From positions 570,001 through 602,000 of the forward strand of contig OZ245768.1 in NCBI GenBank assembly GCA_965227835.1: a stretch of DNA of 32,000 nt, written 5' to 3'. Both the position numbers and the translations under genes were made by a program. The notes under the pieces are model-generated. The model worked only from the letters and a program-made list of their open reading frames with translations, was not told the origin of the DNA and did not search any database. Position 1 is the first letter of the stretch. Each line of letters starts with the position of its first letter. Shown here piece after piece: positions 2,999-32,000 of this stretch. The stretch comes from Candidatus Saccharimonadota bacterium. GTDB lineage: Bacteria > Patescibacteriota > Gracilibacteria > BD1-5 > UBA6164.

Positions 2999-3804
2999 AG
3001 TACATGGTTTATCATATTATTTAAAATTCACTCAGTTAGTTCTTTGTGAGGATTTGTATATTTCCAAGTTTTAATAGTTTCTCTTACTTTCTTCTGAACT
3101 TTAGCATCTAGTGAATCAAATGCTTTTCTAATCATTTGCCCGTCTCATTTCACTTCTACTACAGGAGAATGTATAAAACTCTTAATCTCGTTATATAAAA
3201 ACTTAATACTATTACAGTTCTTTTGCTTGAATGAATCTTCAAGAATTCATTTTAATCTTTTTATAAACTCTTCTTTTCAGTTTTTCTTTATAAATTCTAC
3301 CATGTGTTTTCAATATATTCTTTGCCATCATTTTGATTCTTTAAATTCATCAATTCAAACAGCTCTATATAATAAATCTAAAACTGCATTTATTTCTGTA
3401 TTTCAATATTCAATTTTTACATCATTTTTTACAGGTCACTGTAACTCTTTAGAGTTATTATTAATACTTGTATTATTATCTCTCACATTTTTGCTAACGG
3501 TCGGATTGCATTTTTGTATATGGTCGGTTATCGTTTTTGTTAATCGTATTTCTCTCTTTGTTATCTCACTTCATCTATATTCGTAATGAATATGAATATA
3601 TCATAGTTTTTCTAATTTTTTGATCTTTCTACTAATAGTATTTTCATGTATTTTTAGCTTATCTGAGAAATACGAATTACCAGCAAAACAAAAACCTTTT
3701 TCAGCTGTTAAACTGGATATATATAATAATAATGGAAGTTCACTTTTTATTTTCTTATTAAAGATCCAATCATTATCACATATTGCATATCAATTTTTAA
3801 GCAT
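2986..3804 (-). CDS. phage HTH-domain protein (replication/DnaD-like N-terminus), 272 aa
   Basis: ATG 3804-3802, TAG 2988-2986; frame free of TAA/TAG (all tta/cta positions indexed). MLKNGYAICDNDWIFNKKIKSELPLLLYISSLTAEKGFCFAGNSYFSDKLKIHENTISRKIKKLEKLGYI resembles HTH_36-type phage replication-module proteins. Overlaps the methylase start by 13 nt. Confidence 0.6.
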
Positions 3805-3806
3805 GT

Positions 3807-4184
3807 TTAGATCTTGTTATTATAATATTCAAGCATCCTCTTTTCTTCAGGATCAGGAATATCTAACTGCAAAAAATCTCTAGCCCAAACTCTTATTTTC
3901 TCAATAAAATCTGTCATTTCTTTACTTGTAAGACTCTTTGTTGGTTTTATATATATAGTTTTAAATTCATATGAATAAGTTCTTAAAAATTTAGATTTAA
4001 ATATCTCTTTAAGTTCTTCTTTATCATGTCATGTATTTCAAAACTCTTCTATAAAATCAAATATTAAGTGTAAATAAGAATTCTGAGGAATCGAACGGGA
4101 ACGAGAAAAGGCTTTTATTTTATAAAGCCTTTGTTTTGCAGTTTGTAGATATTCTATTAGTTCCTGTGGTGTTCCTATTTTCAA
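3807..4184 (-). CDS. hypothetical phage recombination-module protein (NinB/Orf- or HNHc_6-like, tentative)
   Basis: TAA stop 3809-3807. The only start-like codon after the in-frame TAG (4190-4188) is TTG 4184-4182. ..FSRSRSIPQNSYLHLIFDFIEEFG.. (RS-x-QN motif) and C-terminal TSKEMTDFIEKIRVWARDFLQLDIPDPEE. Confidence 0.4.
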
Positions 4185-5224
4185 AGCCTAAAGCTCAGGT
4201 TATAGGATATTTCAGGTTCATGCGATTCCTCGAAGCTATGTTTTAGCTCATTTACTCATACCATCTCTTTTTTATAATTTGAAGTTATAGTTTCTTCTTG
4301 TGATACTATATCTTCAGGATAGATCCATTTCTTTTTTTGTAGGTAGTAAAAATTACCAAGTCACTCTCTTTTAAAAGTTTTCACATTATGTTTTCTCATA
4401 TCCTGATCTATCTCTTTTTTAAGTTCCTTTTGTCTTGCTTCAATATTCTTTTTAGCACTTTCTAGTCATGCATATTCTTCATAAATATCTTCATTCAGAT
4501 TTACTTCTCAATCTTTTGATTTCATCCATGTTTCATAAGCTTCCTGCATTTCAGCAAATATTTTTGGAACTTTCTTTTTCATACTTTCAACTTTCTTTGG
4601 ATCTATCTTTACTTCAAATGTATGTATATCTCATGTTGGCATAATATTACCATTCTCATCATTTTCGGTTACTATCCAATCTAAGTATGCTTTTTGTGGA
4701 ATATATCAGCTTTGAGCTTCTATAAGCATCGCATAAAAATATAATTGTCAGTGACTTTCAGCTCTCTCTTGAGTCCAAGCAGTTTTTCAGGTTTTAAATT
4801 CTCTAAATGCATGAAGTCAATCTGTTACTATATCAGGAGAGTTATCTATAAATCCTAGACAGCAGATTCAATCTATAAATTGTTGCAATCTTTGCTCGTA
4901 TGTAGGATATAAATCAAATTGCCAATCCATCAGCTTTTCACAAAATTCTGAATTGTCAGATATAAGATTTACTATATTTCTATATTGTTTATCTTTATGT
5001 TCTTCTAAAGCTTCATATTCTCAGTTTCTATTTTTTGAGAGAGCTTTTATGATTACATCTTCATCAAATTCTCTCTCTTCAATCATAGTTCCAAGAACCT
5101 TTCAGAATGCTATTTCTTTTGTTTCAAAGAATGGTTCTTCTTCAAAATATGTTTTTATAAATTGTGATCTAAAATTTTCAAATGAATATATTTTAGACCA
5201 GCTTAGACTTTTAATTTCTGCCAT
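4175..5224 (-). CDS. PD-(D/E)XK-family nuclease (phage exonuclease-like), 349 aa
   Basis: ATG 5224-5222, TAG 4177-4175, every codon translated. Core GFIDNSPDIVTDGLHAFREFKTGKTAWTQERAESHGQLYFYAMLIEA fits the D..(D/E)xK..Q..Y nuclease signature. Lies directly downstream of the Sak4-like ATPase. Confidence 0.7.
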
Positions 5225-5244
5225 AGTTTTTTGGTTAAAATATA

Positions 5245-6126
5245 TTATTTAGTTTCTAATGATTTTTTCATATCTTCTTTTAGCTGTAAAATATCAGCTT
5301 TTTGTGTTTCAGATACAAATTCTTTGTTATTTTTCATCTCTTTTTGAAATTCTAGAAATCCTGTTTTTAGAGATGCTAGAGTTTTTACTTTCCTAAGTTT
5401 ATTGTATATCTTTTGGAAGTTTTTTTGCTGTTCATCTCAGACTCAGTTATATTCTACTACTTTCTTTTCTTCTCAGATTTCTATTTCAGCTAGTTTACTT
5501 ACCCATACCTGAAAGTCTGCTCAAGTAGTGTTTCATATAAGTCAGGTTCTATCTTTTGATAGGAGTTTTGGATTTGAGAGAGTTTCTATTACATGTTCTC
5601 AAGTAGCGAGTACTTCCATATGTCAGACTATATCCATGAAGTATGCAATTTTTGTCGCACTTTTTCAGTTCAAGCTTGGTACAATTTTTGAGATTTTACC
5701 CTCATCTGTAATTTCTTGCTCTTGAGCTATAAAAAGTACATGCATATCTAGTCATCTAAATTCTCTTAGTATTCATTCAATTTGCTTTGCGATTACAGCC
5801 CAATCCTGTAGTTGTAATGCTCTTCATCTTGTAGCTTCAAGTTCAGCTTTTATAATATCATTTATTTCACTTATCGAATCAATTACTACAGTTTCATAAT
5901 TATGTTTTTGATTTTTTAAATATAAAAGTAAATCTCTTAAATCTTTTAGTGATCTTATTTCTGCATAATCTATTTCTTTATTTCATACAGATAGTAGTCA
6001 TGCTTCAGCTGAAGCATAGATTACATTGTTTGCTGTTGATCAAAAAGTTGTTTTTCAACTTCATGATGCTCAATATATCAAAGCCTTAATCTTATGTGAT
6101 GTAGGCTTAAATTTCTTAATTTCCAT
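5245..6126 (-). CDS. Sak4-like AAA_24 ATPase (phage RecA-like recombination protein), 293 aa
   Basis: ATG 6126-6124, TAA 5247-5245, frame verified line by line. MEIKKFKPTSHKIKALIYGASGSGKTTFGSTANN (Walker A with three TGA glycines) and VVIDSISE (Walker B). Confidence 0.8.
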
Positions 6127-6130
6127 AATA

Positions 6131-6232
6131 TTGACTTAATGTAATAAATTAATATTATGTAAAGGCTTATTTATTCGTATGAGTAAATGAGTTCGTACGG
6201 AAGAGTCTCTATTTTTAGAGGCTTTTTCTTTT
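6131..6232 (+). ncRNA. candidate small phage RNA: promoter-like element plus plus-strand-specific terminator
   Basis: TTGACT (6131-6136), 16-nt spacer, TATTAT (6153-6158). About 45 nt later comes the hairpin agagtctct-attttt-agaggct(t) (6202-6224), followed by tttttctttt. The stem contains G-U pairs that become C-A mismatches on the minus strand. Confidence 0.3.
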
Positions 6233-6262
6233 CATTTATTTTTCATATCTCTAAATTAGCAA

Positions 6263-6427
6263 TTACATATTTTCTTTGTACACATCTTCCATTGCTATGA
6301 TTTTATCTCATATTTCAAGAAGTTGCTTATATTCTAGATCATTCATTTGAGTTTGATCTATAAGCTTATAATAAGTTTCAGATAACTTATCAAATAGCTT
6401 TTTCTTAGCTTTAAAATTATAAATCAT
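6263..6427 (-). CDS. small hypothetical phage protein (54 aa)
   Basis: ATG 6427-6425, TAA 6265-6263. MIYNFKAKKKLFDKLSETYYKLIDQTQMNDLEYKQLLEIGDKIIAMEDVYKENM. Packed 10 nt after the upstream gene. Confidence 0.4.
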
Positions 6428-6437
6428 TCATCTAAAG

Positions 6438-6662
6438 TTAAGAATTAAGTTTTGCTTCGATCTCTCTCATTCTTTCAAGATCGTATTGTATAAAAGTATT
6501 AATACAGTATTTTGTATTTACTTTTGCTCTAGAATCTTCAAGTCTATCTACAAATTCAATAAATTTTATAAATCTATCGCTATTAATAGTAAACTTAAGA
6601 AGTTCTATTTCAGTTTTCATAGACTCATATTTTTCTAAGTCTACTTGGATTTTGGCTCACAT
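6438..6662 (-). CDS. small hypothetical phage protein (74 aa; 60 aa if started at 6620)
   Basis: True TAA stop 6440-6438. The ORF-track fragment MKTEIELLKF.. extends upstream to ATG 6662-6660 (MGAKIQVDLEKYES..) when TGA is read as Gly. Confidence 0.5.
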
Positions 6663-6792
6663 GGAATTTCTCAGTTACAATATAAAATATTTGCACATTG
6701 TTCCATCACCTGAGTGTTGTAATCAATACTCCCTACTAATAAAATTAATAGTATTACTATAATAAATATATAAATATTACAGTTACATTTAG

Positions 6793-7029
6793 TTAGTTTT
6801 CTTCTCATAATTCATCATTATTAGCGAATAAATCAAGTATACTATACTTCTCGGTTTTAGTTCTTTTTTCAACCTTGTTAATAGCATCTGTTAAAGCCTT
6901 TTTGGTTTTCCAAATAGGATTTTTTTGCTTCTTTATATGATGTCTTATGACATAAGCAGGTTTATCTAAATGTTTGGCTATTAATTCCACCAATGTTGGA
7001 TCTAATATTTTCTTATCAATTAATCTCAT
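6793..7029 (-). CDS. hypothetical early phage protein (78 aa)
   Basis: The ORF-track fragment ends at a TGA (6807-6805). The real stop is TAA 6795-6793 (..NNDELGEEN). MRLIDKKILDPTLVELIAKHLDKPAYVIRHHIKKQ may be a small DNA-binding protein. Confidence 0.55.
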
Positions 7030-7039
7030 TTTTAGTTAA

Positions 7040-7201
7040 TTAAGTATTATTTTCTATTTCTTGTAGCAGTCATATAAAACTGACTAAGTTTTTTCTTACA
7101 GTTTCCTTTTGCAGAAGTTCCTTAATCTCGTTCTCTTTATAAGGTTCATCGAGATAGTAAACTCAGCGAAATTCAACCCATTTTTTATATCTTGCTTCCA
7201 T
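7040..7201 (-). CDS. hypothetical early phage protein (53 aa), first gene divergent from the repressor
   Basis: ATG 7201-7199, TAA 7042-7040. MEARYKKWVEFRGVYYLDEPYKENEIKELLQKETVRKNLVSFIGLLQEIENNT. Occupies a Cro-like position, but there is no sequence evidence for that function. Confidence 0.45.
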
Positions 7202-7421
7202 ATCAATCTCGTTTATTACTATTATTACCTAATTAGTATATAATGAAGATCAAAAAAATATTAGTTTTCTACTTATCGGATTATTTTAAAGAGCATTGCT
7301 TTAGTGCAGGTACACTATATACAGATTTAGTAATAATGCAAAACTTTTTATACAAAATATAGAGCTTTTCTCGTGTTTTTTTATAGTTTTTCATTAAAAA
7401 TCTTTGACTTATTACTATTTC

Positions 7422-7450
7422 TGTATACACTATTACCGAAATTGTATACA
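7422..7450. promoter_or_regulatory. candidate operator pair in the divergent immunity region
   Basis: Perfect 8-bp palindrome TGTATACA at 7422-7429 and again at 7443-7450 (21 bp centre to centre). They lie about 25-50 bp upstream of the XRE start. A related CTGTATA half-site sits inverted at 7318-7324, and TACACTAT repeats at 7311 and 7426. Confidence 0.45.
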
Positions 7451-7472
7451 ATTTAATTTTTTACATATAACA

Positions 7473-7922
7473 ATGTATAAGGAAAAAGTAGTTAATATTG
7501 AAGTGATATGTAAATATTTATGAAGAGAAATTTATAAATATTTAGAGAATAAAGGTCAGACAATTACAGCTTTAGCTGAAACTATCTGAAAATCTCAAGC
7601 ATATATTACTGACTTATTAAATGGTAGAAGAAATACTTCTAATTTAGAAGTCTATAAAAGAATGGCAGAAGCTATTTGAATGTCTGAAAAAGAGTTCAAT
7701 AACCTTTATAAAGAGGCTAAAAAATATGAGTACTCTGTTTCAACATGAGATAATTTAGATAATAGTTTTTCATTAGATGATTTTAAACTTTCAGATCTTA
7801 AACTAGCTCTTTCGAGAGAATATTGAACGAAAGACGAGCAGGTTTTAGAAGATATTATGTCTTATGCTAAGTTTAAAATAGAGCAATGAGATACTAAATT
7901 TTTGAAAAATTTAAAAAAATAA
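7473..7922 (+). CDS. XRE-family HTH transcriptional repressor (149 aa)
   Basis: ATG 7473, TAA 7920-7922. ..GQTITALAETIGKSQAYITDLLNGRRNTS is a classic HTH_3 helix-turn-helix. The turn Gly is a TGA at 7587-7589. Confidence 0.85.
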
Positions 7923-8021
7923 AATTTTGTATCGAGAAATTAATAAAAAATTAATATCCTATAGATATAATTTATTCTGATGCCCTAAGAAGCATATTTA
8001 TTTTTGTACCCAATTTTATAA

Positions 8022-8438
8022 ATGAATGAAGTACTAGAAAAATACAGAGGTAATTGTTTGCCGATTGATATAGAAAAAATTATATCTGATTTTTGATTGT
8101 CTATAGATTATTTTGAATTTAATACAATCAATGGTTTTATAGCCTGAAATTCTATCATAATAAATAAGAATTTAACTCCTGAAGAGAAAAGATTTACTAT
8201 AGCTCATGAGCTTGGTCATTTTATTGATGGTGAACTTTGAGCATCTACAGAACTATTCTCAAGTACTGATCCTAAAGAAAAAATAGCAGATCAGTTTGCA
8301 ATGGATATTTTATACCCTACCTATAAAGTTAAAGAATTATGGGAAGAATATGAAAATATACCAACTCTTGCACAAACTTTCCTTGTATCAAATAATGTTA
8401 TTGAAAAAAAGTTAAAACAAATTTATAAACTTACTTAA
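8022..8438 (+). CDS. ImmA/IrrE-family zinc metallopeptidase (138 aa)
   Basis: ATG 8022, TAA 8436-8438. ..EEKRFTIAHELGHFIDGEL (HExxH) ..ADQFAMDILYP. Paired with the XRE gene as in ImmR/ImmA prophage and ICE switches. Confidence 0.85.
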
Positions 8439-8445
8439 TGATGTT

Positions 8446-9912
8446 ATGAGAGCAATAGTCTATTGTAGAAAGTCAACTGATAGAGAAGATATGCAAATGC
8501 AAAGTCTTGATATTCAACTACAGTGGGCTTTAGAATACTGTAAAAGCAATAAAATGACCATTGCTGAAACTATATTAGAATCAAAAAGTGCATCAAAAAT
8601 TACATGAAGAGAAGGTTTTCAAAAATTAGTTGAACATTTTGAGAAATGAACAGCTGATGTTTTAATCGTGTATAACATTGATAGAATTGCTCGCAATCCT
8701 CTTGATGAGTGAAATATAAAATGGTTAGCTCAACAATGAAAAATAAAGCAAATACACTCTCCTCAGTGAGTATTTGATTGAAGGCAGATACTTGTGTTAT
8801 CACTTCATATGGCAATGGCGAATCAATATACAATCGATTTAAGTGCTAGAATTAAGGATGGTAAGAAAAAGAAAGTAGAAAAGTGAAAGATAAGCTGGAG
8901 AGCTCCTCTAGGTTATCAAAATGATAAAAATAATAATACTATTGAAGTAAAAGATGACGAATCTATCTATATAAAGAGAATTTTTGAAATGAGGAGTGAA
9001 TGACATTCTTTAGAATTGATAGCTGACCAAATTCATGCTGAATGATTTAGAACTAGAAAATGATATAGAGTTTCTAAAACTGTAATTGAAAGAATAATAA
9101 AAAGCCCTTTTTATTACTGAGTTATAGCATATAAAGATGAGCTATTTAAATGAGATCACAACCCAATAGTATCAAAAGAGTTATGGGACAAAGCAAACAG
9201 CCAATGAAGATGAATTACGGTCGTTTTTGATAGGGATATAACTCCTTTAAAATGAATGGTTAAACATTATGAAACTTGAACTACCATGACAGCTTCTCTA
9301 ATTAAAAATAAACAATATGTATATTTTCACTTACACTCTAAAGTAAAATCTTGAAATAAACTATGGTGTAATCAAAATAACATAATTAAAGAGTTTGATA
9401 AAAACATTGATCTATACTGTATTCCTGAACATGAAAAAGAAAATATAAAAGAAGCAATATTTGAAGAGTGTTGAAATAAATTGGATAATAATAAAAAAGA
9501 GAGAAAGATTATTAAATGAAAAATTACAAAATTAGAAAAAGATAAAACATGACTTATAACAATGAGGAGAAATTGAGAGTTAACTACTGAAGAATTTCTT
9601 GAAGAAAAAAATAACATAATCAACGAAATTGAAGATTATGAGAACAAATTGATTGGTTTAAATAGAAAAGATAACTCTATTTTAGATGAATTAGATTGAA
9701 TGCTCGAACTCTTCATAAACCTGAACAGCTTGTGGAAAACTGCTAGTAATGAAAAAAAACTTGAATATATTGCAAAAGTCGTGCTCGAACTAAATTTTAA
9801 CAACGAAAAAAGGCTTTACATAGAGGAAGAACCACTATTCAAAGCCTTTCAAAATTTTAATCGTCACAAATGGTGGACTCACCGGGGCTCGAACCCGGGA
9901 CCTATCGCTTAA
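8446..9912 (+). CDS. large serine recombinase (phage integrase), 488 aa
   Basis: ATG 8446, TAA 9910-9912. MRAIVYCRKSTDREDMQMQSLDIQ (catalytic Ser region), ..VLIVYNIDRIARN.., recombinase domain ..YIKRIFEMRSEGHSLELIADQI.. and a long coiled-coil C-terminus. The last 14 codons (WWTHRGSNPGPIA) are antisense to the tRNA-Lys 3' half. Confidence 0.9.
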
Positions 9913-9946
9913 GAGGCGAGTGCTCTACCAACTGAGCTATAAGTCC
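9871..9946 (-). tRNA. tRNA-Lys (anticodon CUU), CCA encoded
   Basis: The reverse complement GGACTTATAGCTCAGTTGGTAGAGCACTCGCCTCTTAAGCGATAGGTCCCGGGTTCGAGCCCCGGTGAGTCCACCA folds by hand. Acceptor 7 bp, D arm GCTC/GAGC, anticodon loop CTCTTAA, T arm CCGGG-TTCGAGC-CCCGG. There is a single C27-U43 mismatch. Confidence 0.9.
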
Positions 9947-13413: not shown

Positions 13414-14859
13414 TTAACTCCTCATACTTCTAACTAAATTATCCCAATCATTTTTAGGTTTCTCTGAAATTTGTGATCATTTTGGAATTTTAGGATAATT
13501 TCATCTCACTCCTTGAGGAGTATTTTCATCATAATATAGTTTAAATTCTGGTGGGTTATAGCAGGAAATAATAGGAATTCATTCAAAATTATTTTTTCAG
13601 TATCTATTTCATACACAACTAATACCCACAGTTTGTCATCATTTTTTTCAAACTAGTATCATCATCTTGGTCAAAGTACTTCACTTTGTAATTATATCTT
13701 CACTTAAAATAACTTTCTTTCATCTTAAATCTATATCATGTCTTTTCAACATCATTTCTTTATCATTTTCTCATCATTTTTCAGTATAAATACTATCTTC
13801 AATTCCTAGTTTTTCAGCTAATAAAAGAGACATTCTAACACTTCCCATTTGTGCTCAAATAACTACATCAGCTTCTAATCACAAATTTTTTATTTCACTA
13901 GCAATTTCGTTTGCAGCTCTTTGTAATACTAAATAATTTCTCTCAATAGCTCATATATTTATATAAGCATTACTTAAAAGTCAGCTAGCAAGTCTACAGT
14001 ATTTTCATCATTCTATTCTATTATAAAAAGCTCAAATATATCTCAACAATTCTTCAAAACTACCCGTATAAAGCAATCTTTCAAATTCATTTTTGTCTTT
14101 AGAAATATTACTTTCTTGAAAAAAATCATATCAAATACAACATATTTCATCAAAAAATTCATTTACTGTATCTTTCAAATTTTCACTTCATAAAATTGGT
14201 CTTCACATAACTATATGATTAGAACCTTGGTTAATTGCTTCTTTAGGTGTAGTAATTCTTTTTTGGTCTCATTTATCTCATAAATAAAATCTCACTCAAG
14301 GAGTAATAATTTCAAAATTGTAATCTCTATAAACATCTCTTAATATTTGAGCTTCCATAGGAGAGCAAACGATACCATCAACTCAAGCCTGTAAAGCTTC
14401 CTTTGCAAGTTTTAAAACACTATGTTTTGAGGTTTCATCAAATATTTTATTTGTTTCTAAATCATCAAGTGTAGTTAAAGCGGTAATTGCAAAAATCTTA
14501 GTTTTCATTCATAGACTATTTCTAGTTTCTACTGCTTTTTTCAAAGCCTCATATCAACTACTTGCATGAATGGTAACAAATTCTGCTTTGTTTCAAAGAT
14601 CATAGTTTCATAACTTTTTAATGTAGTTTATAGTTGTATTTTGGATATCATGCCATTTAGGATCAAGCATAATACCTCACTTTACTCATTTAAACATTTC
14701 ATCAACTCCTCTAAGTCAAATATCTGCTAATAAATCATTAACTTTAAAAACAATTCTATCCATATATCAAGAACACTCCGAGGATATTTGCTCAATCTTA
14801 CTTCTAGCTTCTGACTCTGATAAATTATCTAAAGCAATAATTAGTTTATGATTATTCAT
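13414..14859 (-). CDS. pyrF/pyrE: fused orotidine-5'-phosphate decarboxylase (N) and orotate phosphoribosyltransferase-like domain (C), 481 aa
   Basis: ATG 14859-14857, TAA 13416-13414, frame verified line by line. N-terminal half: HKLIIALD..VFKVNDLL..MLDPKWHDIQNT..ITPGVR..GSNHIVMGRPIL (PyrF signatures). C-terminal half: CRLASGLLSNAYINIG..VVIGAQMGSVRMSLLLAEKLG..GKKVILSEDIITKGSTL (type I PRTase PRPP loop). Confidence 0.8.
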
Positions 14860-14954
14860 ATTTTTAATTTTAAAATAATTAATAAGTTATATAAATATGA
14901 ATAAATACAAATTTGTCAAACATAAAATTAAAAATAAAATTACAACGATAATAA

Positions 14955-17533: not shown

Positions 17534-19234
17534 ATGTATAAAAAAATATATATTATCTGAATATGATGAATATGAATATCTGCTGTAGCAAGATATTATT
17601 TGCAAAAATGATATAAAATATTTTGAAGTGATAAAACAAACTCTGAATTAATATCTAAACTGAAAGAAGAATGAATGGATATTATAATTTGAGAAGATGA
17701 AAAAAGAATAGATAAAAATTTTGAAAAAGTCATATATTCCAAAGCAATATCAAAAGATGCAGAAGAAATAAAAAAAGCAGTAAAATTGGGCATAAAAACA
17801 AAAAGCTATCCAGAAGAATTAGCTGAAATAACAAAGGATAAGAAATTAATAGCTATATCCTGAACGCACTGAAAAACAACTACAACATCCCTAGTATCAC
17901 TTGTATTAAAAAATTCAAATTATAATTTTTGAGCTATAATTTGAAGCACACTAAATCAACTAGATAAAAAAAATTTTTGCTATAAATGAAAAGAAAATCC
18001 GTGAGATCATTTTGTAATAGAAGCATGTGAATACAAAAGAAGCTTTTTAAAATATAAACCTTTGATAACAGTAATAACAAATATAGAACTAGACCATCTA
18101 GATTATTATAAAGATGAAAAAGATTATTTATTAGCATTTGAAGAATTTACAAAAAATACAATAAAGTGATGATATGTAATTCTAAACTGACAAGATAAGA
18201 ATTGTAAAAAACTACTAAAATTAAGAAAAGACCTAAACTACATAGAAATACACCAAAACCATTTCAAAGTCTTTAAAAATGACCTACTCCCCTCTCCTTT
18301 AAGGAGAGGTGTTGTGGGTGAGGTATGTCCGGAAATAAATGGGAATGAAGAAAAATCGGTCAGGAGTAAGGTTTATTCAAACAAGAATATGCAAGGGGTC
18401 AAGTATATGCAAGGGATCAAGTATATGCAAGGGATCAAGTATATGCAAGGGATCAAGTATATGCAAGGGGTCAAGACCCCTTGTCTTAGTGAATTTTGAG
18501 ATGAAATTTGAAAAATTGAAAATAAAATATGTTCTACCCCCCTCTCCTCTAAGGAGAGGGGTTGGGGGTGAGGTATGACCGGAAATGATCAGGGATGAGG
18601 TCTGTCCGAAGATGACTGAAAGTGAAGTTTAAATTACTGAGCTAAAATTTTTAAATTTCCAAAAATATCTCTAAAAATACCAGGGAGTCATATACTCTTT
18701 GATGCAAAAATAGCATATACAATATGAAAAATACTAGATATACAAGAAAAAGAAATAATCTCTTCAATACAAAATTATAGTTGAGCTTGGAGAAGAAATG
18801 AAATAATATGAAAAACAAAAAATGGTAATATATTGATAAGTGATTATTGACATCATCCTACAGAAATAAAACTAACACTAGAATCTATAAAAAATGCTAA
18901 CAAAGATAAAAAAATCCTAACAATATTTCAGCCACATCAATATAGTAGAACACTTAAACTTATAAATGATTTTAAAGAATGTTTTAAATACAGTGATAAA
19001 TTAATAATACCAAATATATATGAATCAAGAGACAGCAAAGAAGACAAAGAAAAAATAAATTCTGAAAAATTAGTGTCTTTAATAAATCATAAAAATAAGT
19101 CTGATTGAAAGGGTTTAAAAAATACATTAAAAATGATTTTAGAATATGATAATAAAAATATTAACTCAAGCATAATTATATTGCTTTGAGCATGAGACAT
19201 AGATGATTTGAGGAATAAAATTCCTTTAGATTAA
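17534..19234 (+). CDS. murC: UDP-N-acetylmuramate--L-alanine ligase MurC with a 115-codon in-frame insertion (566 aa)
   Basis: ATG 17534, TAA 19232-19234. [22 protein letters not shown] (four TGA glycines at 17558-17575), AISGTHGKTTTTS (P-loop), ..[12 protein letters not shown].., ..[17 protein letters not shown].., ..DYGHHPTEI.., ..[10 protein letters not shown]... Codons 18242-18660 were written out individually and contain no TAA/TAG. Confidence 0.9.
18284..18628 (+). repeat. GC-rich composite repeat element inserted in frame in murC
   Basis: 345 nt (exactly 115 codons), visibly GC-richer than its flanks. Contains a ~65-nt direct repeat (18284-18350 and 18534-18600), each with a hairpin cctctcc-N5-ggagagg (18291-18309, 18541-18559). 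The unit gaggtMtgWccgRaaat... occurs three times (18320, 18570, 18598). Also holds an 18-nt tandem array and a 20-nt palindrome. Confidence 0.8.
18389..18478 (+). repeat. tandem repeat, 18-nt unit atgcaagggatcaagtat x5
   Basis: Head-to-tail copies at 18389, 18407, 18425, 18443 and 18461. Translated in the murC frame as [30 protein letters not shown]. Confidence 0.95.
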
Positions 19235-19284: not shown

Positions 19285-19578
19285 TTAGTCTCCTTCTTTT
19301 AAATTTTTTTCATTTTGATGTTCTTCACATTTATCTATAAGAACATAAAAAAGTCCTAAAAGAATAGTACATAAATAAATAAAGTAAAAAATACTAACAA
19401 ATACCACATCATACTCCCCATTCACTTTTTTATAAATTTCTAGGACAAATAAAACAAAAGAAATTATAAAGCCGACATTAAAATAAAATCTAGAAGAATC
19501 ACTGGTTGACACAGTATAAAGAATAAATGGCACAGCAACAAAAGAAGCAATATGACAAAAATCAATAAAATTTTCCAT
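19285..19578 (-). CDS. small multi-pass membrane protein, MENF family copy 1 (97 aa)
   Basis: Standard ORF with a TAA stop. MENFIDFCHIASFVAVPFILY.. has three hydrophobic segments and ends ..KEGD. RBS aaaggag lies upstream. Confidence 0.6.
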   Translation of the reverse strand: MENFIDFCHIASFVAVPFILYTVSTSDSSRFYFNVGFIISFVLFVLEIYKKVNGEYDVVFVSIFYFIYLCTILLGLFYVLIDKCEEHQNEKNLKEGD

Positions 19579-19790
19579 GTTTTAAAGAACTCCTTTAAAA
19601 AGTTTGTAACTTCAAAAAGCTAAACAATCAGATAAATCTTCAAGTAATAACTTTTTGCTTATTTTTAGTTATCTTGCATTAATAAATAATCCAAAAAAGG
19701 AAAGAATAAAAAACAAGATAAAATTATAATATAAATAAAAAAAAATTGTCAAAAAATATTTATAGCAAAACAATTTTTAAAATTTAAAAA

Positions 19791-19821: not shown

Positions 19822-20124
19822 CTAATCTCCTTGTTTTAATACCTTCCATTTTTCAATTTCAGTCTTCTTTTTATGTTTTTGATGAAGAATAAATCCAAAA
19901 GCAAGAAACACAATAAGACCTACAGCAAAAATAGAGTTTAACACAGTACCTGCATTATAATCTATAAGCGATCCTATAAGCGAAAGAAAAAAACCTGCAG
20001 AAATAAGAAAGCATAAATTGAATATATAATATAAAGGTTTTCCTGATGCTAGTATAATTAAAACGATAAAAATTCCAACGACACCAAGACCAACAAAAAT
20101 AAGAATATCAGAGAAATTTTCCAT
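19822..20124 (-). CDS. small multi-pass membrane protein, MENF family copy 2 (100 aa)
   Basis: MENFSDILIFVGLGVVGIFIVLII.. ends ..LKQGD. Same N- and C-terminal signature and the same translation-initiation region as copy 1. Confidence 0.6.
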   Translation of the reverse strand: MENFSDILIFVGLGVVGIFIVLIILASGKPLYYIFNLCFLISAGFFLSLIGSLIDYNAGTVLNSIFAVGLIVFLAFGFILHQKHKKKTEIEKWKVLKQGD

Positions 20125-20634
20125 GATCTAAAAACTCCTTTAAAAAATTTGTAGTTTCAAAAAGTTACATACTTAAATAGATATTTATAAAAACACTAGT
20201 AAGTAGTAATTTTTTGTATTTATCTTTAATCTTGTATCAACAAATAATTCCAAAAAGGGAAAAATAAAAACAAGAGAAAGTCATTATACAAAAAAAATAA
20301 ATATTTAAACTTATTTTTTGATATTATAAGAAAAAATAATTATATGTAAAGGTATTTTTATGTTAGATAATTAACTGTCCCAGTAGATAGGTAAAACTAT
20401 TTATTAAGAAGAAACTGAGAAATTACTTCGTTAAAATAAAAATAAAGATTTTTATTTTTAGTAGGCAGAGAACTTTATCTCTTTGATTTTATATCTTCTT
20501 CAACAGATGGCTTTAGCCATTTGCTATTTTAGAAAATTTCTATTTTCTTGTTATCCACTATCTATATAGTAAAACAATTTGCATGCTAATTTACTATATA
20601 AAAAAATATATAGAAATATGACTTGAATAAAAAA

Positions 20635-20688: not shown

Positions 20689-23600
20689 CTATTTTGAAAA
20701 AAGTTTAGGAGGATCATTTTGAATATTAGAATCATATGTAATTACAAAAGAATAATCATTGCTACTATCATCATCACAAGTCTTTGTAACCTTTCTTATA
20801 TAATTTAAATCATAGATTTCTGCTAAACCATAATATCCTGTAGTCTGTCATCAAGGTAAACTATACTCACTACTACCCTTCACTGCCCCACCTATAGTAT
20901 TTCTAGTAAACAAAGCCCCATTAAATTCTAGCTTAGTTCACAATTCATTATCTCAGTAAGAATTTCAAGAACTATCTGCACTTCTAAAAGCTCAATCAGC
21001 ATAAATTAAAGCATTTATTTCAGAAACACTGTTAGAAATATATATGTTTCAAACATTATTATAATCAGATGAAACATTATAATTATCTTTTAAAACTATT
21101 ATTCAAAGCTTTTTTGAAGAAGTATTTAAATCTCATGTTATTATTACATTTCAATTTTTTACAACCAAAGTTTCATAGTCTTGATCTCAAGAAATAGATA
21201 TATCTCATTCTACATACTTAACTCAATTAACAACAGTGTTTGGAGCTCTATTTTTTATGGAAATAAAGGCATTTTTTCTTATATTAGACCTAAGTTCAGC
21301 CTTGGATAAATCTGAAAAATTAGAATCTTGTCCAGTAATATCTCATTTTCAATCTCATTGTAAATTTCAATAAACTTTTAATCACAGAGTTTCAAAACTA
21401 CACTCTCAACCTTCCCACTCAAAATCATCTAAAAGATATTTTATATTCTTTCCTCAAAAAATGTAAGAAATCTCTAAATTTTCAGATTTTATTTTTGGAG
21501 ATTCTAGCACATTATCATTAGCATCTATTTTTCAAATAAATGATGTAGTATTTGTAGATAGATTATTTCAAAAATATCTATCTACAGAAGAAATTCATCC
21601 GTTCCAAAAATGTCAGCTAATACTAGGTTTTATAGTACTTGTAGATATTGATAAATTTCAATTCGAATATGAACTAATACTGCCCTCATTATAAAGTACA
21701 ATTCTATAATTCTGTTCTTTTCAAATTTCAGGAACTTCACTTAAATCTATAAGCTCAAAGCCTCAAACTATAGGTTTCTTAAAAGAATTTGTATCTGATA
21801 TATTTTTAGTAATAGTTTGTTTTTCAGAAATATTCTCGTAATCATCTCACCATTTATCCATACTTATTTCAAAAGATTGATTAAAAGAATTAAGTGGATA
21901 AATAGACTTAAGGTAAAAATCAATATTTCAATTAGAGCTAGATTCTCATTGAAGAATTTCTTTTAAATAATCTTTATCATTATCTTTATTAGTAACAGAA
22001 TCAAGAAATTTTCCAAATATAGGATTTCAAAATTCATCTTTTAGCTTCAATGTATAAGTATAATAATCACTATTATTAGCATAGATGTCTCAATTTGAAG
22101 AAACTGAAATTTCAGATTCACTTTCAGATAAATCTCAAGGATAAACTGTAATTTCTTTTATATGTTCCTTACTATTTCAAAGAGCATCTTCAGTTACAAC
22201 TTTGATTTCATAATTTCATGATTCTTTAAAAGAGTTTGATAAAATAGAAGTTAAATCAATTTTTTCTGTCAATCTTGATACATTAGAAATATTAGTATCA
22301 GCTATTTTTTCTTCAAAATTTCATGAGTCTTTTTTTAGCGAAACACTATATTTTATAGAAGCTATATCACTACAACCTCAAGGAAAAATCTCATTTATAC
22401 CAATTTCAAAAGGTTTATTATCTGTAGCTTTTATAGAGGTTAAATCTGGAAATATCACATTGGGAGCAGTTCTATCAATATGATCCATAGTACCTTCATA
22501 AGAATATTGATTACCTGCATTATCACTAGCTGTTAGACTAAATTTTTGACCGTTATTTGATTCATCATTAAAGGTTTTAGTTTCTGAGACATAATTATTA
22601 CAACCAGAAAAATCATCCCAAGAACATATAGCCCTTACAGTTATACTCCTAGAACAAACTAAATTTTGGATTTCACTGACTATAACAGGTCTTATATTAA
22701 ATTTATCATTATCACTTCATAAACTAAATTCTATGAGTTCCTCAGTTAAGTTTCAATCTAAATCAATTTCAGGTATTTCTAAACTAAATTTTTGAGAATA
22801 ATTTCAAGGTTCACTAAAGCTAAAGCTAAAACTAAAATAAGATTTTCATTCATTATCAACATCACTTTTAATTCAGCTATTTTCTCAATTAAATACTAAA
22901 TTAGAAGAATTATTATTTACAGTTATTCAGTAAGTTCAATCCCCATAGCTATTTCATTTAGAATCTTTTAGATATATTTTAGCTTCAATAATATCATTTG
23001 GATAAAATAGAGTTCAATTACTATAGTTTATAAATTCTATTATAGATTCACTTTTTACTGGGTCTCAAGTTTTAGACTCCACAGGAGTAGAATTAAATTT
23101 TTCTTCAAGTTTATTTAAAGAAATATTATCTGATTCATGATCTATATCGTTTTCAAAAGTAAAATAAAAATAAAGTTGTCATATTTCGTTTGCTTGTACA
23201 TTTTCTTCAATTGAAATCTCAAGAAGCTTTTGTGAATTTATTTTTATTTCTTTTACTGATCAATTTTCTTCTCTATTAGTTTGATTTAAATCTTTATCAA
23301 TAGACACTGTATCATTTAAATATAATATTTTCTCAGATTCTTCTCAAGAATCAGTCATATATGTATATTCTATTTTATAATTAAAAGTCTGTTCTCTACA
23401 TTCTTGATTAGGTTTATTTACCAGAATTTTTGAATTTAAAGTTAGAGGTTCTCATATTTTCAAACTACTTTTATTATATGATAGAGAGTCAGATTGTACT
23501 TTATATTGATTAGCTCATTTAGTATCTGTTTTTTCTCATTTAAGTATTTTATAAGTTCATGTTACATTTAAAAATCAAGAATAAGTCTCAAGACAACTAT

Positions 23601-24192
23601 CACTAGAACATATATTTTTCAAACTATATGAATGTTTATCTTCTTCATATTTATATGAAGTGAGATTGGTAACTATATCTCAAAGAGCTAAATCTATATC
23701 AATTTCTTGAATACTACTTAGTATTTTATTATAGTTTTTGAAAAAATATTCTATTCAATTACTATAATCTACATAGGAAGAAACAGAATCTTCTTTAATT
23801 CTAAAACTCTGGTTATATTCAAATAAACTAAAAAGTTTAAAATTCTTTGAGTAGCATTCACTACTATTTTCTCATTCACAAAATCAGTTAATTTGAAAAG
23901 ACTTTTCATCATACGGATCGTATATATCTAATACATTATTACGAAGTTCTTCAGTTATCCATGAATCAAAATTTTCTATATCTAAAATTTTCCCATTTTC
24001 TATAATACCAAATTCATCTTCCAGTCAGACATAATCACTTTTAGTTGAAATACATTCTTCATCAACACATTTATTTTTAACAAAAACAGGTTTTTCACAG
24101 CTCATTTGTATAGCAAAAGTACTATTTGAGAAGATAAAAAATATGTTTAGAAATAAACATAAACTAAGAATAAATTTAAATATTTTTTCCAT
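20689..24192 (-). CDS. large secreted/cell-surface protein (1167 aa)
   Basis: ATG 24192-24190, TAG 20691-20689; all 59 lines checked, no in-frame TAA/TAG. Signal peptide MEKIFKFILSLCLFLNIFFIFSNSTFA. Asn/Ser/Asp-rich beta-type repeats with many TGA glycines. No catalytic motif recognised. Confidence 0.8.
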
Positions 24193-24343
24193 AAAAAAAT
24201 TATAAAATAATAAGTTAAATCATTATTATTTTATCATTTCATTAAAATAAGTGCAAGAAATTGAAGATAAAATTAAGAAATTTATAGTTAAAAAAATATT
24301 ATTTTTTAAATAACCTGAATTTTTTCAGAGATTTACTGGTTAA

Positions 24344-24363
24344 CAAGAGGTCAAGACCACTTG
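24344..24363. repeat. palindromic element copy (caagaggtcaagaccacttg)
   Basis: Matches the murC-internal palindrome 18464-18483 (caaggggtcaagaccccttg), including the flank ..tgtcttagt. Confidence 0.8.
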
Positions 24364-24524
24364 TCTTAGTAATTATTAAAATAGAGTTTATAAATAACAT
24401 GTTTTACCTACTTCCTATATTTATTATTATACTTTATATTTTATTTATTTTGGTAATCTATAAACTTTAGGTTTAAATATACTTGAATTATATTAAAGAT
24501 GATATATTAGAAGAATTTAAAAGA

Positions 24525-24544
24525 CAAGGGGTCTTGACTCCTTG
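24525..24544. repeat. palindromic element copy, inverted orientation (caaggggtcttgactccttg)
   Basis: The reverse complement atgcaaggagtcaagaccccttgtctt matches 18461-18487 at about 27 of 29 positions by eye. Followed by degenerate short tandem repeats (cttgaa units, 24578-24616). Confidence 0.8.
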
Positions 24545-24650
24545 CATTTTGAACCATTGAATAATAACAGTTTGCATCTTGAATTTTTGAACTCTTGAAC
24601 TCTTGAAACCTTGAACATTAAAAATATATTTATTAAAACATAATATATAA

Positions 24651-29651: not shown

Positions 29652-30806
29652 GAAGTGCAATTAAAAGAGAAGAAAATATAGTATTCCCCGTAGGGTAATA
29701 ACATTATTTTCTAATATAATAAGATATGTACTGACAATTAATATTCCAAGAGAGAGAAAGTATTGAATTTCATTTAAATAAATGATTAAAGAAAAAAGAT
29801 ATAGCATCAATACTAAAAAGATCAGAATCAACAATAAGCAGAGAGATATACAGAAATTCAGTAAAAAAACGATGAAACAATAAAAAAGTATATTTAGCAC
29901 TAGAAGCAGAAATCAAATCATATCAAAGACGATGGTTAACAAAAACTCAATCAATGAAGATAAATATGAATACTAATATGAAAAATTTCATAATAGAACA
30001 ACTATCAATAACAGAAATACAAATGTCCCCAAAAACAATTGCTAAGAAACGGAATAATACTCAAACAGATAAAAAGAAACATATCTCCCATACAAGTATA
30101 TATTCTTGGCTAGAAACTGGTATGTGAAATAAATATAAAGAACTATTATTATATAAACATAAAGGTTATAGAAAGAAAAAACAACAAACAGAAAGAGTGA
30201 AAATTAAAAATAGAGTTAGTATTAAAAATAGACCTGAAACAATAAATAACAGAGAAGAAAAATGACATATTGAAGCTGATTTAATTGTTTCTAAAAAATG
30301 ATTTAAATGAGCTATACTTACATTGGTTGATAGAAAGACTAGGTTACCTAAAATTTTTAAAATAAAAGATAAATCAAGTGAAAATATAATTAATCTAATA
30401 GCTTGAGTTAAAGATGATATATGAATTAAATCTGTTACTTTTGATAATTGAATGGAATTTGCTAAGCATTATTTATTAAATGATATATGAATAGATACTT
30501 ACTTTTGTGAGCCTTATTCTTCTTGGCAGAAGTGAAGTATTGAGAATTTAAATAGGATTATCAGGAGATTTTTTCCTAAATGAACTATATTTGATTATGT
30601 AAGTGATGAAAAAATAAAAAGTATTTGCGATATATTAGCAAATACTCCTAGAGAAATACTTTGATTTATTTCCCCTAATCAAGCACACTTTTCACAATCT
30701 TAATGTTGTATTTGGAATTATAACAAAATTTTTTATAATCTCAAAAATAAAAAATTTCTTAATGCTATATTTTCTTCTTTAAGTTCATTTAAAAAATTGC
30801 ACTTCG
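29652..30806 (+). mobile_element. IS30-family insertion sequence, apparently intact (~1.15 kb)
   Basis: Single transposase ORF flanked by imperfect inverted repeats. Left: gaagtgcaatt..agaagaaaatatag (29652-29681). Right reverse complement: gaagtgcaatt..agaagaaaatatag (30806 back to ~30766). No clear target duplication seen. Confidence 0.75.
29726..30703 (+). CDS. IS30-family DDE transposase (325 aa)
   Basis: ATG 29726, TAA 30701-30703. N-terminal HTH LIFQERESIEFHLNKGLKKKDIASILKRSESTISREIYRNS. DDE core ..GHIEADLIVSKKG.., ..SVTFDNGMEFAKH.., ..PYSSWQKGSIENLNRIIRRFFPKGT... Confidence 0.9.
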
Positions 30807-31312: not shown

Positions 31313-32000
31313 CTAAACTATTGGGACTTCCTCTAAAACAACTAATCTTTTGAGATTAAAAGATATAGCTTCCATAAATGCAGTAAACTGATTTTTTACT
31401 ACAGACTTATACCTCACTCTATGATTCATTTTTGAAAATACCCTCTCATAAGGAGATCTAAGTTTAGAATAAAACTTATCTTTATCCTTGTTCTTATCTT
31501 TCATATTATTTTTCTTTATTGCACATAGATGTAATCACTTCTTTTTTGTTGATATTACAGCCGGTCAAATACAATATCACTTATCAGCATATACTGCTCA
31601 TGAACTTGGTAATACATGCTTCATTCACTTTGCATCTGTTACATTAGCTTGAGTTATAGCTATCTTGTTTATCATTCAAGATTGCATATCAACACTAGTA
31701 TGTTTTTTATATCCATACCAAAATTTATTTTTTCATTTAGATCAAATTTTAGCTTCCTTATCATTAGCAACTTTTGGAAGAGTTTCATTATTCATTTTTT
31801 CATATCATTCTTTTATTCATTTATCTCTTTCTTCCCATAAATTAGCTTTAGTAACTAAATGAGAAGCATCTACAAATGTAAACACTTCACTCATATACCC
31901 CTTATTTGATAATTGATTTTTTAAATCTTCAAATATCTTTGATAGTTCATTTGTTCATATCTTTTTTCTTGCTCTTGAGAATATACTATAATCTGGAGTT
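31313..32000 (-). CDS. IS5-family (DDE_Tnp_1) transposase, N-terminus beyond window edge
   Basis: TAG stop 31315-31313, open to 32000 with TGA=Gly. ..FVDASHLVTKAN.., ..FWYGYKKHTSVDMQSGMINKIAITQANVTDAKG.., ..AVYADKGY.., C-terminal RSPYERVFSKMNHRVRYKSVVKNQFTAFMEAISFNLKRL. Confidence 0.85.

What the first reader, a model, noticed from the sequence alone, without database searches (positions are those of the whole stretch)
18284..18628. GC-rich, internally repetitive 345-nt element inserted in frame and stop-free inside the essential gene murC (RPE-like)
MurC reads normally up to ..[14 protein letters not shown] and resumes at ..[21 protein letters not shown]. In between lie exactly 115 codons of sequence with a very different composition. 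It holds two ~65-nt direct repeats (18284-18350, 18534-18600), each with a cctctcc/ggagagg hairpin. A ~30-nt unit occurs three times. Five head-to-tail 18-nt repeats are translated as MQG(V/I)KY x5. A 20-nt perfect palindrome sits at 18464-18483. I wrote out every codon from 18242 to 18660. The murC frame contains no TAA/TAG but six TGA codons (18497, 18509, 18569, 18596, 18617, 18623). The insertion is therefore tolerated only because UGA is sense. The length is a multiple of three. The site corresponds to a variable stretch before the conserved PGxHN segment of Mur ligases. Pieces of the element recur in intergenic DNA at 24.3-24.6 kb. This is the behaviour described for Rickettsia palindromic elements, which are selfish repeats that colonise ORFs in frame. 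I am not aware of it being described for this lineage or under code 25.
Basis: partly seen in the sequence, partly recalled or inferred. Interest (0 to 1): 0.85.

Follow-up and report, generated by a model that had tools for sequence, protein, structure and literature searches.

The report
Triplex-motif repeat DNA translated inside murC
An essential cell-wall gene of a UGA=glycine bacterium carries a translated 115-codon patch of repeat DNA whose core is the 'BoxC/intrastrand-triplex' repeat, reported only between genes in E. coli; related repeats sit inside many genes of uncultured bacteria.

Summary
murC (17534-19234, code 25) carries exactly 115 extra codons (18284-18628). They are 42% GC against 23% for the rest of the gene. 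They hold no TAA/TAG, and six in-frame TGA at the stated positions.

The insert is a mosaic, not one palindromic element:
- two direct copies of a BoxC/PIT/TMECO-type intrastrand-triplex motif (TM), each with a 3' tail;
- a 27-nt hairpin that recurs twice in intergenic DNA at 24.3-24.5 kb;
- five 18-nt tandem units derived from that hairpin's 5' arm;
- an AT-rich linker.

About 10% of 120 Gracilibacteria MurC orthologues carry other TM-encoded inserts in the same loop. These are scattered over the tree, and sister genes lack them. LigA orthologues show similar inserts. One TM subtype occurs at more than 120 metagenome loci (contig GC 23-64%), some inside RpoB, FtsK and Pth.

In an AlphaFold model of an insert-bearing orthologue the loop is disordered and the fold is intact.

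The 'RPE-like' behaviour is supported. Membership of the RPE family, and the idea that the repeat is specific to this lineage, are not. I rate it a new variant of a known kind. How the repeat moves is unknown.

The parts
17534..19234 (+). murC coding sequence (566 aa under code 25; 451 aa without the insert)
   Evidence: Table-25 translation. It has 31 in-frame TGA and a single TAA at 19232. It is 54-65% identical to 120 Gracilibacteria MurC and keeps all 55 columns that are invariant in the 121-sequence alignment. PDB MurC matches cover residues 5-223 and 377-559 and skip the insert.
18284..18628 (+). The 345-nt (115-codon) composite insert, translated in the murC frame
18289..18324 (+). A1 triplex-motif core: CCCCTCTCCT / tta / AGGAGAGG / tgttgt / GGGTGAGGT. 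It gives 8 mirror triads and is read as [12 protein letters not shown].
   Evidence: Found by my triplex-motif finder, which finds none in 20 shuffles of the window. Matches CCTCTCCTYTAAGGAGAGG. The register was read.
18325..18350 (+). 3' tail of A1 (ATGTCCGGAAATAAATGGGAATGA...), part of the 74-nt direct repeat
18382..18475 (+). 18-nt tandem array, 5.2 copies (ATGCAAGGGRTCAAGTAT = MQG(V/I)KY). Each unit repeats the 5' arm and loop of hairpin C.
   Evidence: TRF score 167, 96% matches; family D1.
18461..18490 (+). Hairpin module C (ATGCAAGGGGTC-AA-GACCCCTTGTCTTAGT), a dispersed repeat of this genome
18491..18533 (+). AT-rich linker (16% GC) with two in-frame TGA; no detectable relative
18537..18574 (+). 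A2 triplex-motif core: CCCCCCTCTCCT / cta / AGGAGAGGGG / tt / GGGGGTGAGGT. It gives about 10 triads. It is read in a different frame from A1 ([13 protein letters not shown]), and the TGA of GGGTGAGG is in frame at 18569.
18575..18628 (+). A2 tail plus a local 27-nt duplication (18572-18598 and 18599-25); holds three in-frame TGA
24344..24370 (+). Intergenic copy of hairpin C (2 mismatches)
24521..24547 (-). Intergenic copy of hairpin C (1 mismatch), inverted relative to the copy at 24344
24577..24616 (-). 8-nt tandem array (GTTCAAGA x5 on the - strand). It lies 5' of the inverted C copy, the same array-then-hairpin order as in murC.

Best explanation
The segment is non-autonomous repeat DNA lodged in a surface beta-hairpin loop of MurC and translated as part of the protein.

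Its founding units are two copies of a BoxC/PIT/TMECO-type intrastrand-triplex motif. This motif is a C-rich arm, a loop, the complementary G-rich arm, a short loop, and a second G-rich arm that mirrors the first. Next to them sits a hairpin repeat specific to this genome (C).

Shown:
- the anatomy of the insert;
- its absence from orthologues;
- the open frame;
- recurrence of related inserts in the same loop, and at two other MurC sites, in independent Gracilibacteria lineages, with similar inserts in LigA;
- occurrence of a related triplex-motif subtype inside ORFs of many other uncultured bacteria;
- in the MurC cases examined at DNA level, the motifs lie in either orientation and always in a stop-free frame.

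Inferred:
1. A triplex-motif unit entered the loop by a process that is still unknown. It could be hairpin- or ssDNA-based transposition of the REP/REPIN type, or template switching or gene conversion from another copy.
2. Selection on an essential gene kept only an insertion whose length is a multiple of three, that has no stop, and that lies in a loop.
3. The patch then grew in place by duplication and replication slippage at non-B DNA. The traces are the 74-nt direct repeat, the 27-nt tail duplication and the five 18-nt units.
4. Reassignment of UGA to glycine removes the stop in GGG-TGA-GG and in the AT-rich linker. This opens frames that would be lethal under the standard code.

The peptide is most likely a disordered, tolerated loop with no function of its own.
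For: Frame, length, stops and composition:
-.

Triplex register of both A units, with a T-A*T triad replacing C-G*G at the loop-proximal end in all three arms:
-.
- The motif definition is in PMC4666352.
- The motif is far above chance: more than 120 viral loci against about 1 expected, and none in shuffles.

Orthologues:
- 80 of 121 have a 12-residue loop window, 22 have 17 residues, and ours has 134.
- Eleven others carry P/S/G-rich inserts there.
- They are scattered over the MurC tree, next to sisters without inserts.
- At DNA level these inserts are triplex motifs in both orientations.
- Sister genes 89% and 80% identical in DNA differ by presence or absence of the motifs.

LigA control:
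- 6-8 of 120 orthologues have peptides of the same kind at recurrent sites. One has about 300 extra residues.

Wider occurrence:
- More than 120 metagenome loci hold one 30-nt subtype. Copies lie inside RpoB, FtsK, Pth, an epimerase, UDP-glucose dehydrogenase and a GT4 glycosyltransferase, and the Pfam matches span the insert.

Structure:
- In the orthologue P0096 the same loop insert has pLDDT below 50, lies between two strands, and leaves the fold intact (mean pLDDT 84, pTM 0.83).

Other:
- No terminator-like site lies inside the insert.
- No Rfam family matches.
Against: - The source genome could not be found. Copy number of the A unit outside murC is therefore unknown. In the 32-kb window both triplex motifs lie in this one insert.
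- No terminal inverted repeats, target-site duplication or cognate transposase were seen. In sister comparisons the motifs replace about 22-24 nt of native loop rather than inserting cleanly. Mobility is inferred, not shown.
- The structural argument rests on an orthologue.
- There is no read, transcript or peptide evidence.
- The flanks of insert-bearing murC genes (about 77 kb) held no further strict triplex motif. Either the motifs are sparse in these genomes, or a few permissive genes accumulate them.
Confidence: 0.75

Rival explanations
1. The patch arose in place without any mobile element. Slippage and duplication in a tolerant loop, plus mutational or structural convergence, produced triplex-type sequence de novo.
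For: Local duplication is evident: 18-nt x5, a 27-nt tail duplication and a 74-nt direct repeat. No target-site duplication or terminal repeats were found. In sister genes the motifs replace native loop DNA rather than inserting cleanly.
Against: The same 30-nt subtype, including its loop sequences, is at least 90% identical at more than 120 loci in hosts of 23-64% GC. The motifs occur in both orientations at the same loop. A 42-58% GC motif is not expected to arise from 23% GC coding DNA. Hairpin C has two further copies 6 kb away.
Confidence: 0.1
2. The insert has been co-opted. The loop, with its MQG(V/I)KY x5 repeat, has a function such as an interaction surface or a length-variable regulatory loop, or the DNA or RNA structure regulates murC.
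For: The frame is kept open over 115 codons. An 18-nt repeat can change copy number without shifting the frame. Triplex and G-quadruplex motifs can stall polymerases in vitro (PMC4666352, PMC5100583).
Against: No protein in 5.8 billion matched any frame of the insert at E<=1. The two A copies are read in different frames, so no peptide is conserved. Inserts in orthologues differ in sequence, orientation and length. The equivalent loop is predicted to be disordered.
Confidence: 0.08
3. The segment is an assembly artefact: a chimeric join or a collapsed repeat inside murC.
For: The source appears to be a metagenome-type assembly. The segment is repeat-rich and differs in composition. No reads were available.
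Against: The length is exactly a multiple of three and stop-free only in the murC frame (P about 0.002). Both junctions continue the MurC alignment. Independent assemblies from NCBI, ENA and Logan show triplex-motif inserts in the same loop.
Confidence: 0.04
4. The segment is removed before the protein matures, as a small self-splicing intron or a mini-intein.
For: The RNA folds more stably than shuffles (z = -3.6). Introns are common in rRNA genes of candidate-phyla bacteria (my own knowledge).
Against: No group I, group II or other Rfam match, even at E<=10. There is no Cys/Ser/Thr at the N-terminal junction and no His-Asn plus nucleophile at the C-terminal junction. At 115 aa of low-complexity sequence it is too short for an intein. 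An intron would have no need to be stop-free or a multiple of three.
Confidence: 0.03

Closest known systems
BoxC / PIT / TMECO intrastrand-triplex motif repeats (Holder et al. 2015, PMC4666352; also described as a G-quadruplex-hairpin switch, Kaplan et al. 2016, PMC5100583)
   Same: The architecture is the same: C-rich arm, loop, complementary G-rich arm, short loop, mirror G-rich arm. The core words are the same: CCTCTCC ... GGAGAGG ... GGGTGAGG. Both are GC-rich islands, found in both orientations and sometimes as inverted pairs. Both are associated with local rearrangement.
   Different: In E. coli every copy is intergenic. Here the copies lie inside an essential ORF and are translated. 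The arm register is shifted by one, with a T-A*T terminal triad. A1 has a 6-nt second loop. Each unit carries a 3' tail of about 30 nt. The host has 25% GC and uses code 25.
Rickettsia palindromic elements (RPE; Ogata et al. 2000, from my own knowledge; named in PMC10969869)
   Same: The behaviour is the same: short non-autonomous repeats inserted in frame, free of stops, at surface loops of conserved proteins in an AT-rich reduced genome. They are also present in intergenic DNA.
   Different: There is no sequence relationship. The only related Rfam match scored 27.9 bits against a threshold of 60. RPEs are single palindromes of 100-150 bp confined to one genus. This insert is a mosaic whose core motif is found across bacteria.
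REP / BIME / REPIN elements mobilised by RAYT transposases (from my own knowledge)
   Same: Both are short GC-rich hairpin repeats. The SSPDKGRLGG-type triplex motifs occur as inverted doublets with a 10-15-nt spacer, like REPINs.
   Different: REPs are extragenic by definition. The two A units here are direct repeats, not inverted. No RAYT or Y1 transposase gene lies in the window. The third, mirror arm is not a REP feature.
GC clusters of yeast mitochondrial DNA (from my own knowledge)
   Same: Both are GC-rich palindromic mobile clusters in a very AT-rich genome, and some GC clusters are inserted in frame in a coding gene (var1).
   Different: They occur in an organelle, their sequences are unrelated, and they have no triplex architecture.

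Membership tests
BoxC/PIT/TMECO intrastrand-triplex motif | C-rich arm, loop of 1-6 nt, complementary G-rich arm, loop of 1-6 nt, second G-rich arm mirror-symmetric to the first (G*G, A*A or T*A triads), stem of 6-15 nt, at most one mismatch (ITxF rules, PMC4666352) | tested here: met
   A1 has 8 triads with loops of 3 and 6 nt. A2 has about 10 triads with loops of 3 and 2 nt. Shuffles give no hits.
BoxC/PIT/TMECO intrastrand-triplex motif | Exact TMECO pattern CCCTCNCCC N3-6 GGGNGAGGG N3 GGGNGAGGG | tested here: not met
   The arms read CCCTCTCCT / AGGAGAGGG / GGGTGAGGT. The terminal triad is changed in all three arms in a concerted way, and the second loop is 6 nt in A1 and 2-3 nt in A2. The looser core CCTCTCC N3-6 GGAGAGG N2-8 GGTGAGG is met, and more than 120 viral loci share it.
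BoxC/PIT/TMECO intrastrand-triplex motif | Many dispersed copies in one genome | not testable with these tools
   The source genome is absent from genome contigs, metagenome contigs and the gene index. The window holds two copies, both in the insert.
BoxC/PIT/TMECO intrastrand-triplex motif | Intergenic location (all copies in E. coli) | tested here: not met
   Both copies are inside murC. In viral and metagenome contigs below 50% GC, 34-42% of related motifs are spanned by ORFs of at least 150 aa, against 75-77% of random positions.
BoxC/PIT/TMECO intrastrand-triplex motif | Forms a triplex in vitro (CD, NMR) | not testable with these tools
   This needs biophysics on oligonucleotides of 18289-18324 and 18537-18574.
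Rickettsia palindromic elements | Sequence similarity to an RPE consensus | tested here: not met
   The only Rickettsia-related Rfam match (rpsL_ricks) scored 27.9 bits against a gathering score of 60, E = 0.5. RPE consensus sequences themselves were not available to align.
Rickettsia palindromic elements | In-frame, stop-free insertion at surface loops of conserved proteins | tested here: met
   and 71 (by way of an orthologue).
MITE | Terminal inverted repeats and a target-site duplication | tested here: not met
   The ends of the insert share no inverted repeat. The only long repeat is direct. No target-site duplication is seen in sister comparisons of orthologues.
REP/REPIN-RAYT | Inverted doublet of hairpin repeats plus a cognate Y1 (RAYT) transposase | tested here: inconclusive
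   The A units are direct, not inverted. No Y1 transposase is among the window ORFs tested. The related SSPDKGRLGG subtype does form inverted doublets. RAYT genes in those genomes were not searched.
Group I / group II intron | Match to the intron covariance models | tested here: not met
   No match at gathering score or at E<=10.
Intein | N-terminal Cys/Ser/Thr and C-terminal His-Asn followed by Cys/Ser/Thr, with splicing blocks | tested here: not met
   The junctions read ..KND|LLPSP.. and ..LNYGA|KIFKFP...

The most novel reading that the evidence does not exclude
Intrastrand-triplex (BoxC-type) repeats are not just intergenic curiosities of enterobacteria. They may be a mobile repeat family found across bacteria that actively colonises coding sequences of uncultured, often AT-rich bacteria, including RpoB, FtsK, LigA, MurC and Pth. 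They land in loops and are translated. Near-identical 30-mers in hosts from 23 to 64% GC would imply a still unidentified mobilising machinery or frequent horizontal spread. Reassignment of UGA would widen the set of frames in which they can be tolerated. The murC patch would then be an unusually large, multiply expanded example.
Probability: 0.45. Interest if true: 0.8.

Novelty: new variant of a known kind. Interest (0 to 1): 0.6.

Why it matters
If correct, this ties together two separate literatures. One covers triplex/BoxC repeats, regarded as intergenic and of unknown function. The other covers selfish repeats that insert into proteins, known mainly from Rickettsia. The finding shows the same phenomenon in a candidate-phylum lineage with a reassigned stop codon.

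It has three practical and conceptual consequences:
- Gene callers and orthology pipelines will mis-size or split such genes, and will certainly do so if the standard code is applied.
- It offers a natural map of insertion-tolerant loops in essential enzymes (MurC, LigA, RpoB, FtsK).
- It makes testable how a codon reassignment changes the cost of repeat invasion.

The extreme conservation of a 30-nt motif across very different genomes also poses a clear question: what moves it?

Tried and rejected
- I concatenated all six reading frames of the insert into one protein query against 5.8 billion proteins. Nothing scored at E<=1.
- I tried to locate the source genome. An exact look-up of a TGA-free window protein found nothing. 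A genome-contig scan with the A-tail pattern gave one hit, in a cyanobacterium, with no hairpin beside it, so it is a chance match. A metagenome scan with the hairpin-C pattern gave no hits. Counting copies in the genome was therefore impossible.
- Exact 20-mers of hairpin C occur in two AT-rich viral contigs. About seven chance hits are expected for 17 specified bases, so I did not use them.
- Apparent extended similarity between the sequence downstream of hairpin C in murC and in the intergenic copy did not exceed shuffles. I rejected it.
I used orthologue P0096 instead.
- The idea that murC alone is a hot spot was suggested, where every strict triplex motif in six loci lay in murC. The LigA control weakened it. 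The loci had been chosen because their murC carried inserts.
- Terminator function of hairpin C: no terminator-like site was called in the insert.
- Literature searches for the triplex-motif peptides or DNA strings, and for such elements in candidate-phyla bacteria, found nothing relevant.
Full report
**Observation**

The window is about 25% GC and uses translation table 25. The MurC P-loop GTHGKTTT at 17861 can only be read if TGA is glycine, and murC holds 31 in-frame TGA codons. Under that code murC is one open frame, 17534-19234, of 566 residues.

The flagged segment 18284-18628 is exactly 115 codons. It has 42% GC against 23% for the rest of the gene. The other five frames of the segment are closed by 1-4 stops. 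Only 0.2% of composition-matched shuffles stay open over 115 codons. The open frame is therefore not a by-product of GC-richness.

The repeats are as described:
- a 74-nt direct repeat at 18275-18348 and 18525-18598, 82% identical;
- 5.2 copies of an 18-nt unit at 18382-18475;
- a hairpin at 18464-18483 with two perfect 9-nt arms around AA;
- a looser 27-nt unit present three times.

**Is it an insertion?**

The 120 best MurC homologues are all from Gracilibacteria and are 435-506 aa long, mostly 439-445. In alignments the query keeps every invariant column. It differs by one block between ..HFKVFKND and [16 protein letters not shown]. In the window of columns around the loop, 80 of 121 sequences have 12 residues, 22 have 17, and this one has 134.

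PDB MurC sequences align to residues 5-223 and 377-559 and skip the block. No second Mur-type P-loop lies in the window.

**What the pieces are**

The 'cctctcc/ggagagg hairpin' is followed a few bases later by GGGTGAGG. The contigs range from 33 to 74% GC. A variant is present in about 4,400 of 5,426 E. coli genomes.

A literature search on the two words led to Holder et al. 2015 (PMC4666352) and Kaplan et al. 2016 (PMC5100583). This is the BoxC / PIT / 'TMECO' intrastrand-triplex motif: a C-rich arm, its complementary G-rich arm, and a second G-rich arm that mirrors the first, so that G*G-C and A/T*A-T triads can form.

Both A units fit the rule. A1 (18289-18324) has 8 triads. A2 (18537-18574) has about 10. 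The terminal C-G*G triad of the E. coli consensus is replaced in all three arms by T-A*T. My finder for this architecture gives no hits in shuffled sequence. Both papers state that in E. coli every copy is intergenic.

The second module is the 27-nt hairpin C (18461-18490). It is the only part of the insert that recurs in the window. It occurs twice, in inverted orientation, in the intergenic region at 24344-24370 and 24521-24547. Similarity does not extend beyond those 27 nt.

The 18-nt tandem units repeat the 5' arm and loop of hairpin C. The intergenic copy at 24521-24547 is likewise preceded, in its own orientation, by a tandem array of 8-nt units containing TCAAGA. This fits slippage at the hairpin.

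A 16% GC linker and a local 27-nt duplication complete the patch. The insert is therefore a mosaic, not one element. The two A copies are 250 nt apart and so are read in different frames ([12 protein letters not shown] and [13 protein letters not shown]). This argues against any selected peptide.

**Relatives**

Eleven other MurC orthologues have P/S/G-rich inserts in the same loop. Others have inserts at two further sites. I fetched the DNA for six of them. All their inserts are triplex motifs, in either orientation. All strict motifs in those loci lay in murC.

Insert-bearing genes are scattered over a MurC tree, next to sisters without inserts. P0098 and P0014 are 89% identical in murC DNA. 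P0096 and P0086 are 80% identical. In each pair the two genes differ by presence or absence of the motifs. The motifs replace about 22-24 nt of native loop, and no target-site duplication is seen.

Those loci had been chosen for their murC inserts, so I ran LigA from the window as a control. Six to eight of 120 LigA orthologues carry peptides of the same kind at recurrent positions. One is 988 aa instead of about 690. At DNA level the inserts of the two LigA genes I fetched (P0157 and P0213) are triplex motifs, and further motifs lie in neighbouring intergenic DNA. The phenomenon is therefore general in the lineage.

There were more than 120 loci, with contig GC from 23 to 64% and at least 90% identity including the loops. 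The motif usually has an inverted partner 10-15 nt upstream, forming a REPIN-like doublet. Copies lie inside RpoB, FtsK, Pth, an NAD epimerase, UDP-glucose dehydrogenase and a GT4 glycosyltransferase. They are read as SSPDKGRLGG or TPPNLPLSGE, and the Pfam domain matches span the insert.

Related motifs are spanned by long ORFs in 34-42% of cases, against 75-77% for random positions. They are depleted in genes but far from excluded. No Rfam family covers them. No paper in the library holds these strings.

**Structure**

The tool would not accept the code-25 translation. A model of P0096, which has a 60-residue insert in the same alignment columns, has mean pLDDT 84 and pTM 0.83. Its inserts (residues 248-294 and 390-395) have pLDDT below 50. 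The larger one lies between two short strands, and the rest of the fold is intact. By analogy, the 115-residue patch is a disordered surface loop.

**Mechanism and rivals**

The best-supported account has four steps:
1. A triplex-motif repeat unit enters a permissive loop.
2. Selection filters for frame, absence of stops and position.
3. The patch grows in place by duplication and slippage at non-B DNA.
4. UGA=Gly makes the GGG-TGA-GG frame and the linker readable.

The anatomy, the recurrence in orthologues and other genes, and the open frame are shown. The way the repeat entered is inferred and its agent is unknown. There are no terminal repeats and no target-site duplication. No Y1 transposase is among the window genes, although IS30-like and DDE transposases lie at 29.7-32 kb.

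The rivals are less likely, for the reasons given with each: purely local origin, co-option, assembly artefact, and an intron or intein.

**Verdict**

I found no description of three things: this motif translated inside an essential gene of a code-25 bacterium, its recurrence at the same loops in other genes of the lineage, and its presence inside genes such as RpoB and FtsK in metagenomes. I rate it a new variant of a known kind, of moderate to high interest.

Noticed in passing
L139-L258 (metagenome contigs); e.g. L220:1244 and 3333, L184:7397, L180:813: A 30-nt triplex-motif subtype (CCTCCCCTGAYAAGGGGAGGNTAGGNGGGG) is at least 90% identical at more than 120 loci with contig GC of 23-64%. 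It usually forms an inverted doublet. Some copies are inside RpoB, FtsK, Pth, an epimerase and a glycosyltransferase, read as SSPDKGRLGG or TPPNLPLSGE. What mobilises it is unknown.
   Followed up: partly
L137:2546-5512 (GCA_018456195.1, Gracilibacteria): A LigA of 988 aa instead of about 690. About 300 extra residues at five sites are encoded by at least five strict triplex motifs plus other GC-rich islands. Four more motifs lie in adjacent intergenic DNA.
   Followed up: partly
window 1-9946: Prophage-like block: a ParB-like N-terminus fused to an N6/N4 DNA methylase (1661-3016), small regulators, and a large serine recombinase (8416-9912). The recombinase reading frame runs into a tRNA gene on the opposite strand (9874-9946), which suggests integration at the tRNA.
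   Followed up: partly
window 29723-30703 and 31313-31999: An IS30-like transposase (HTH_38 + rve) and a DDE_Tnp_1 transposase that runs off the end of the window. They are the only transposase genes nearby. No Y1/RAYT-type gene was seen.
   Followed up: partly
window 13414-14886 (-): A single 490-aa ORF fuses OMP decarboxylase (PyrF) to a phosphoribosyltransferase (PyrE-like) domain.
   Followed up: no
window 24344-24547: The two intergenic hairpin-C copies are inverted relative to each other around about 150 nt of AT-rich DNA. This could be a small MITE-like unit or a pair of structural hairpins upstream of the 1177-aa surface protein gene (20689-24222).
   Followed up: partly
window 19285-19581 and 19822-20127 (-): Two neighbouring ORFs of about 100 aa begin with nearly the same N-terminus (MENF(I/S)D..) and end in ..(K/L)(E/Q)GD. 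They look like tandem paralogues of a small membrane protein.
   Followed up: no
window 20283-20359: A 41-nt AT-rich tandem repeat (1.9 copies, TRF score 101) in intergenic DNA.
   Followed up: no
L128:6781-6814; L134:11018-11064; MurC alignment columns about 205 and about 595: MurC has two further insertion hot spots besides the loop studied here. One lies after the KN.Y segment. The other lies before the conserved [12 protein letters not shown] segment and is occupied by reverse-oriented triplex motifs (PSPLAPLPGDRGE, PSPLTPLPEGEG) in separate lineages.
   Followed up: partly
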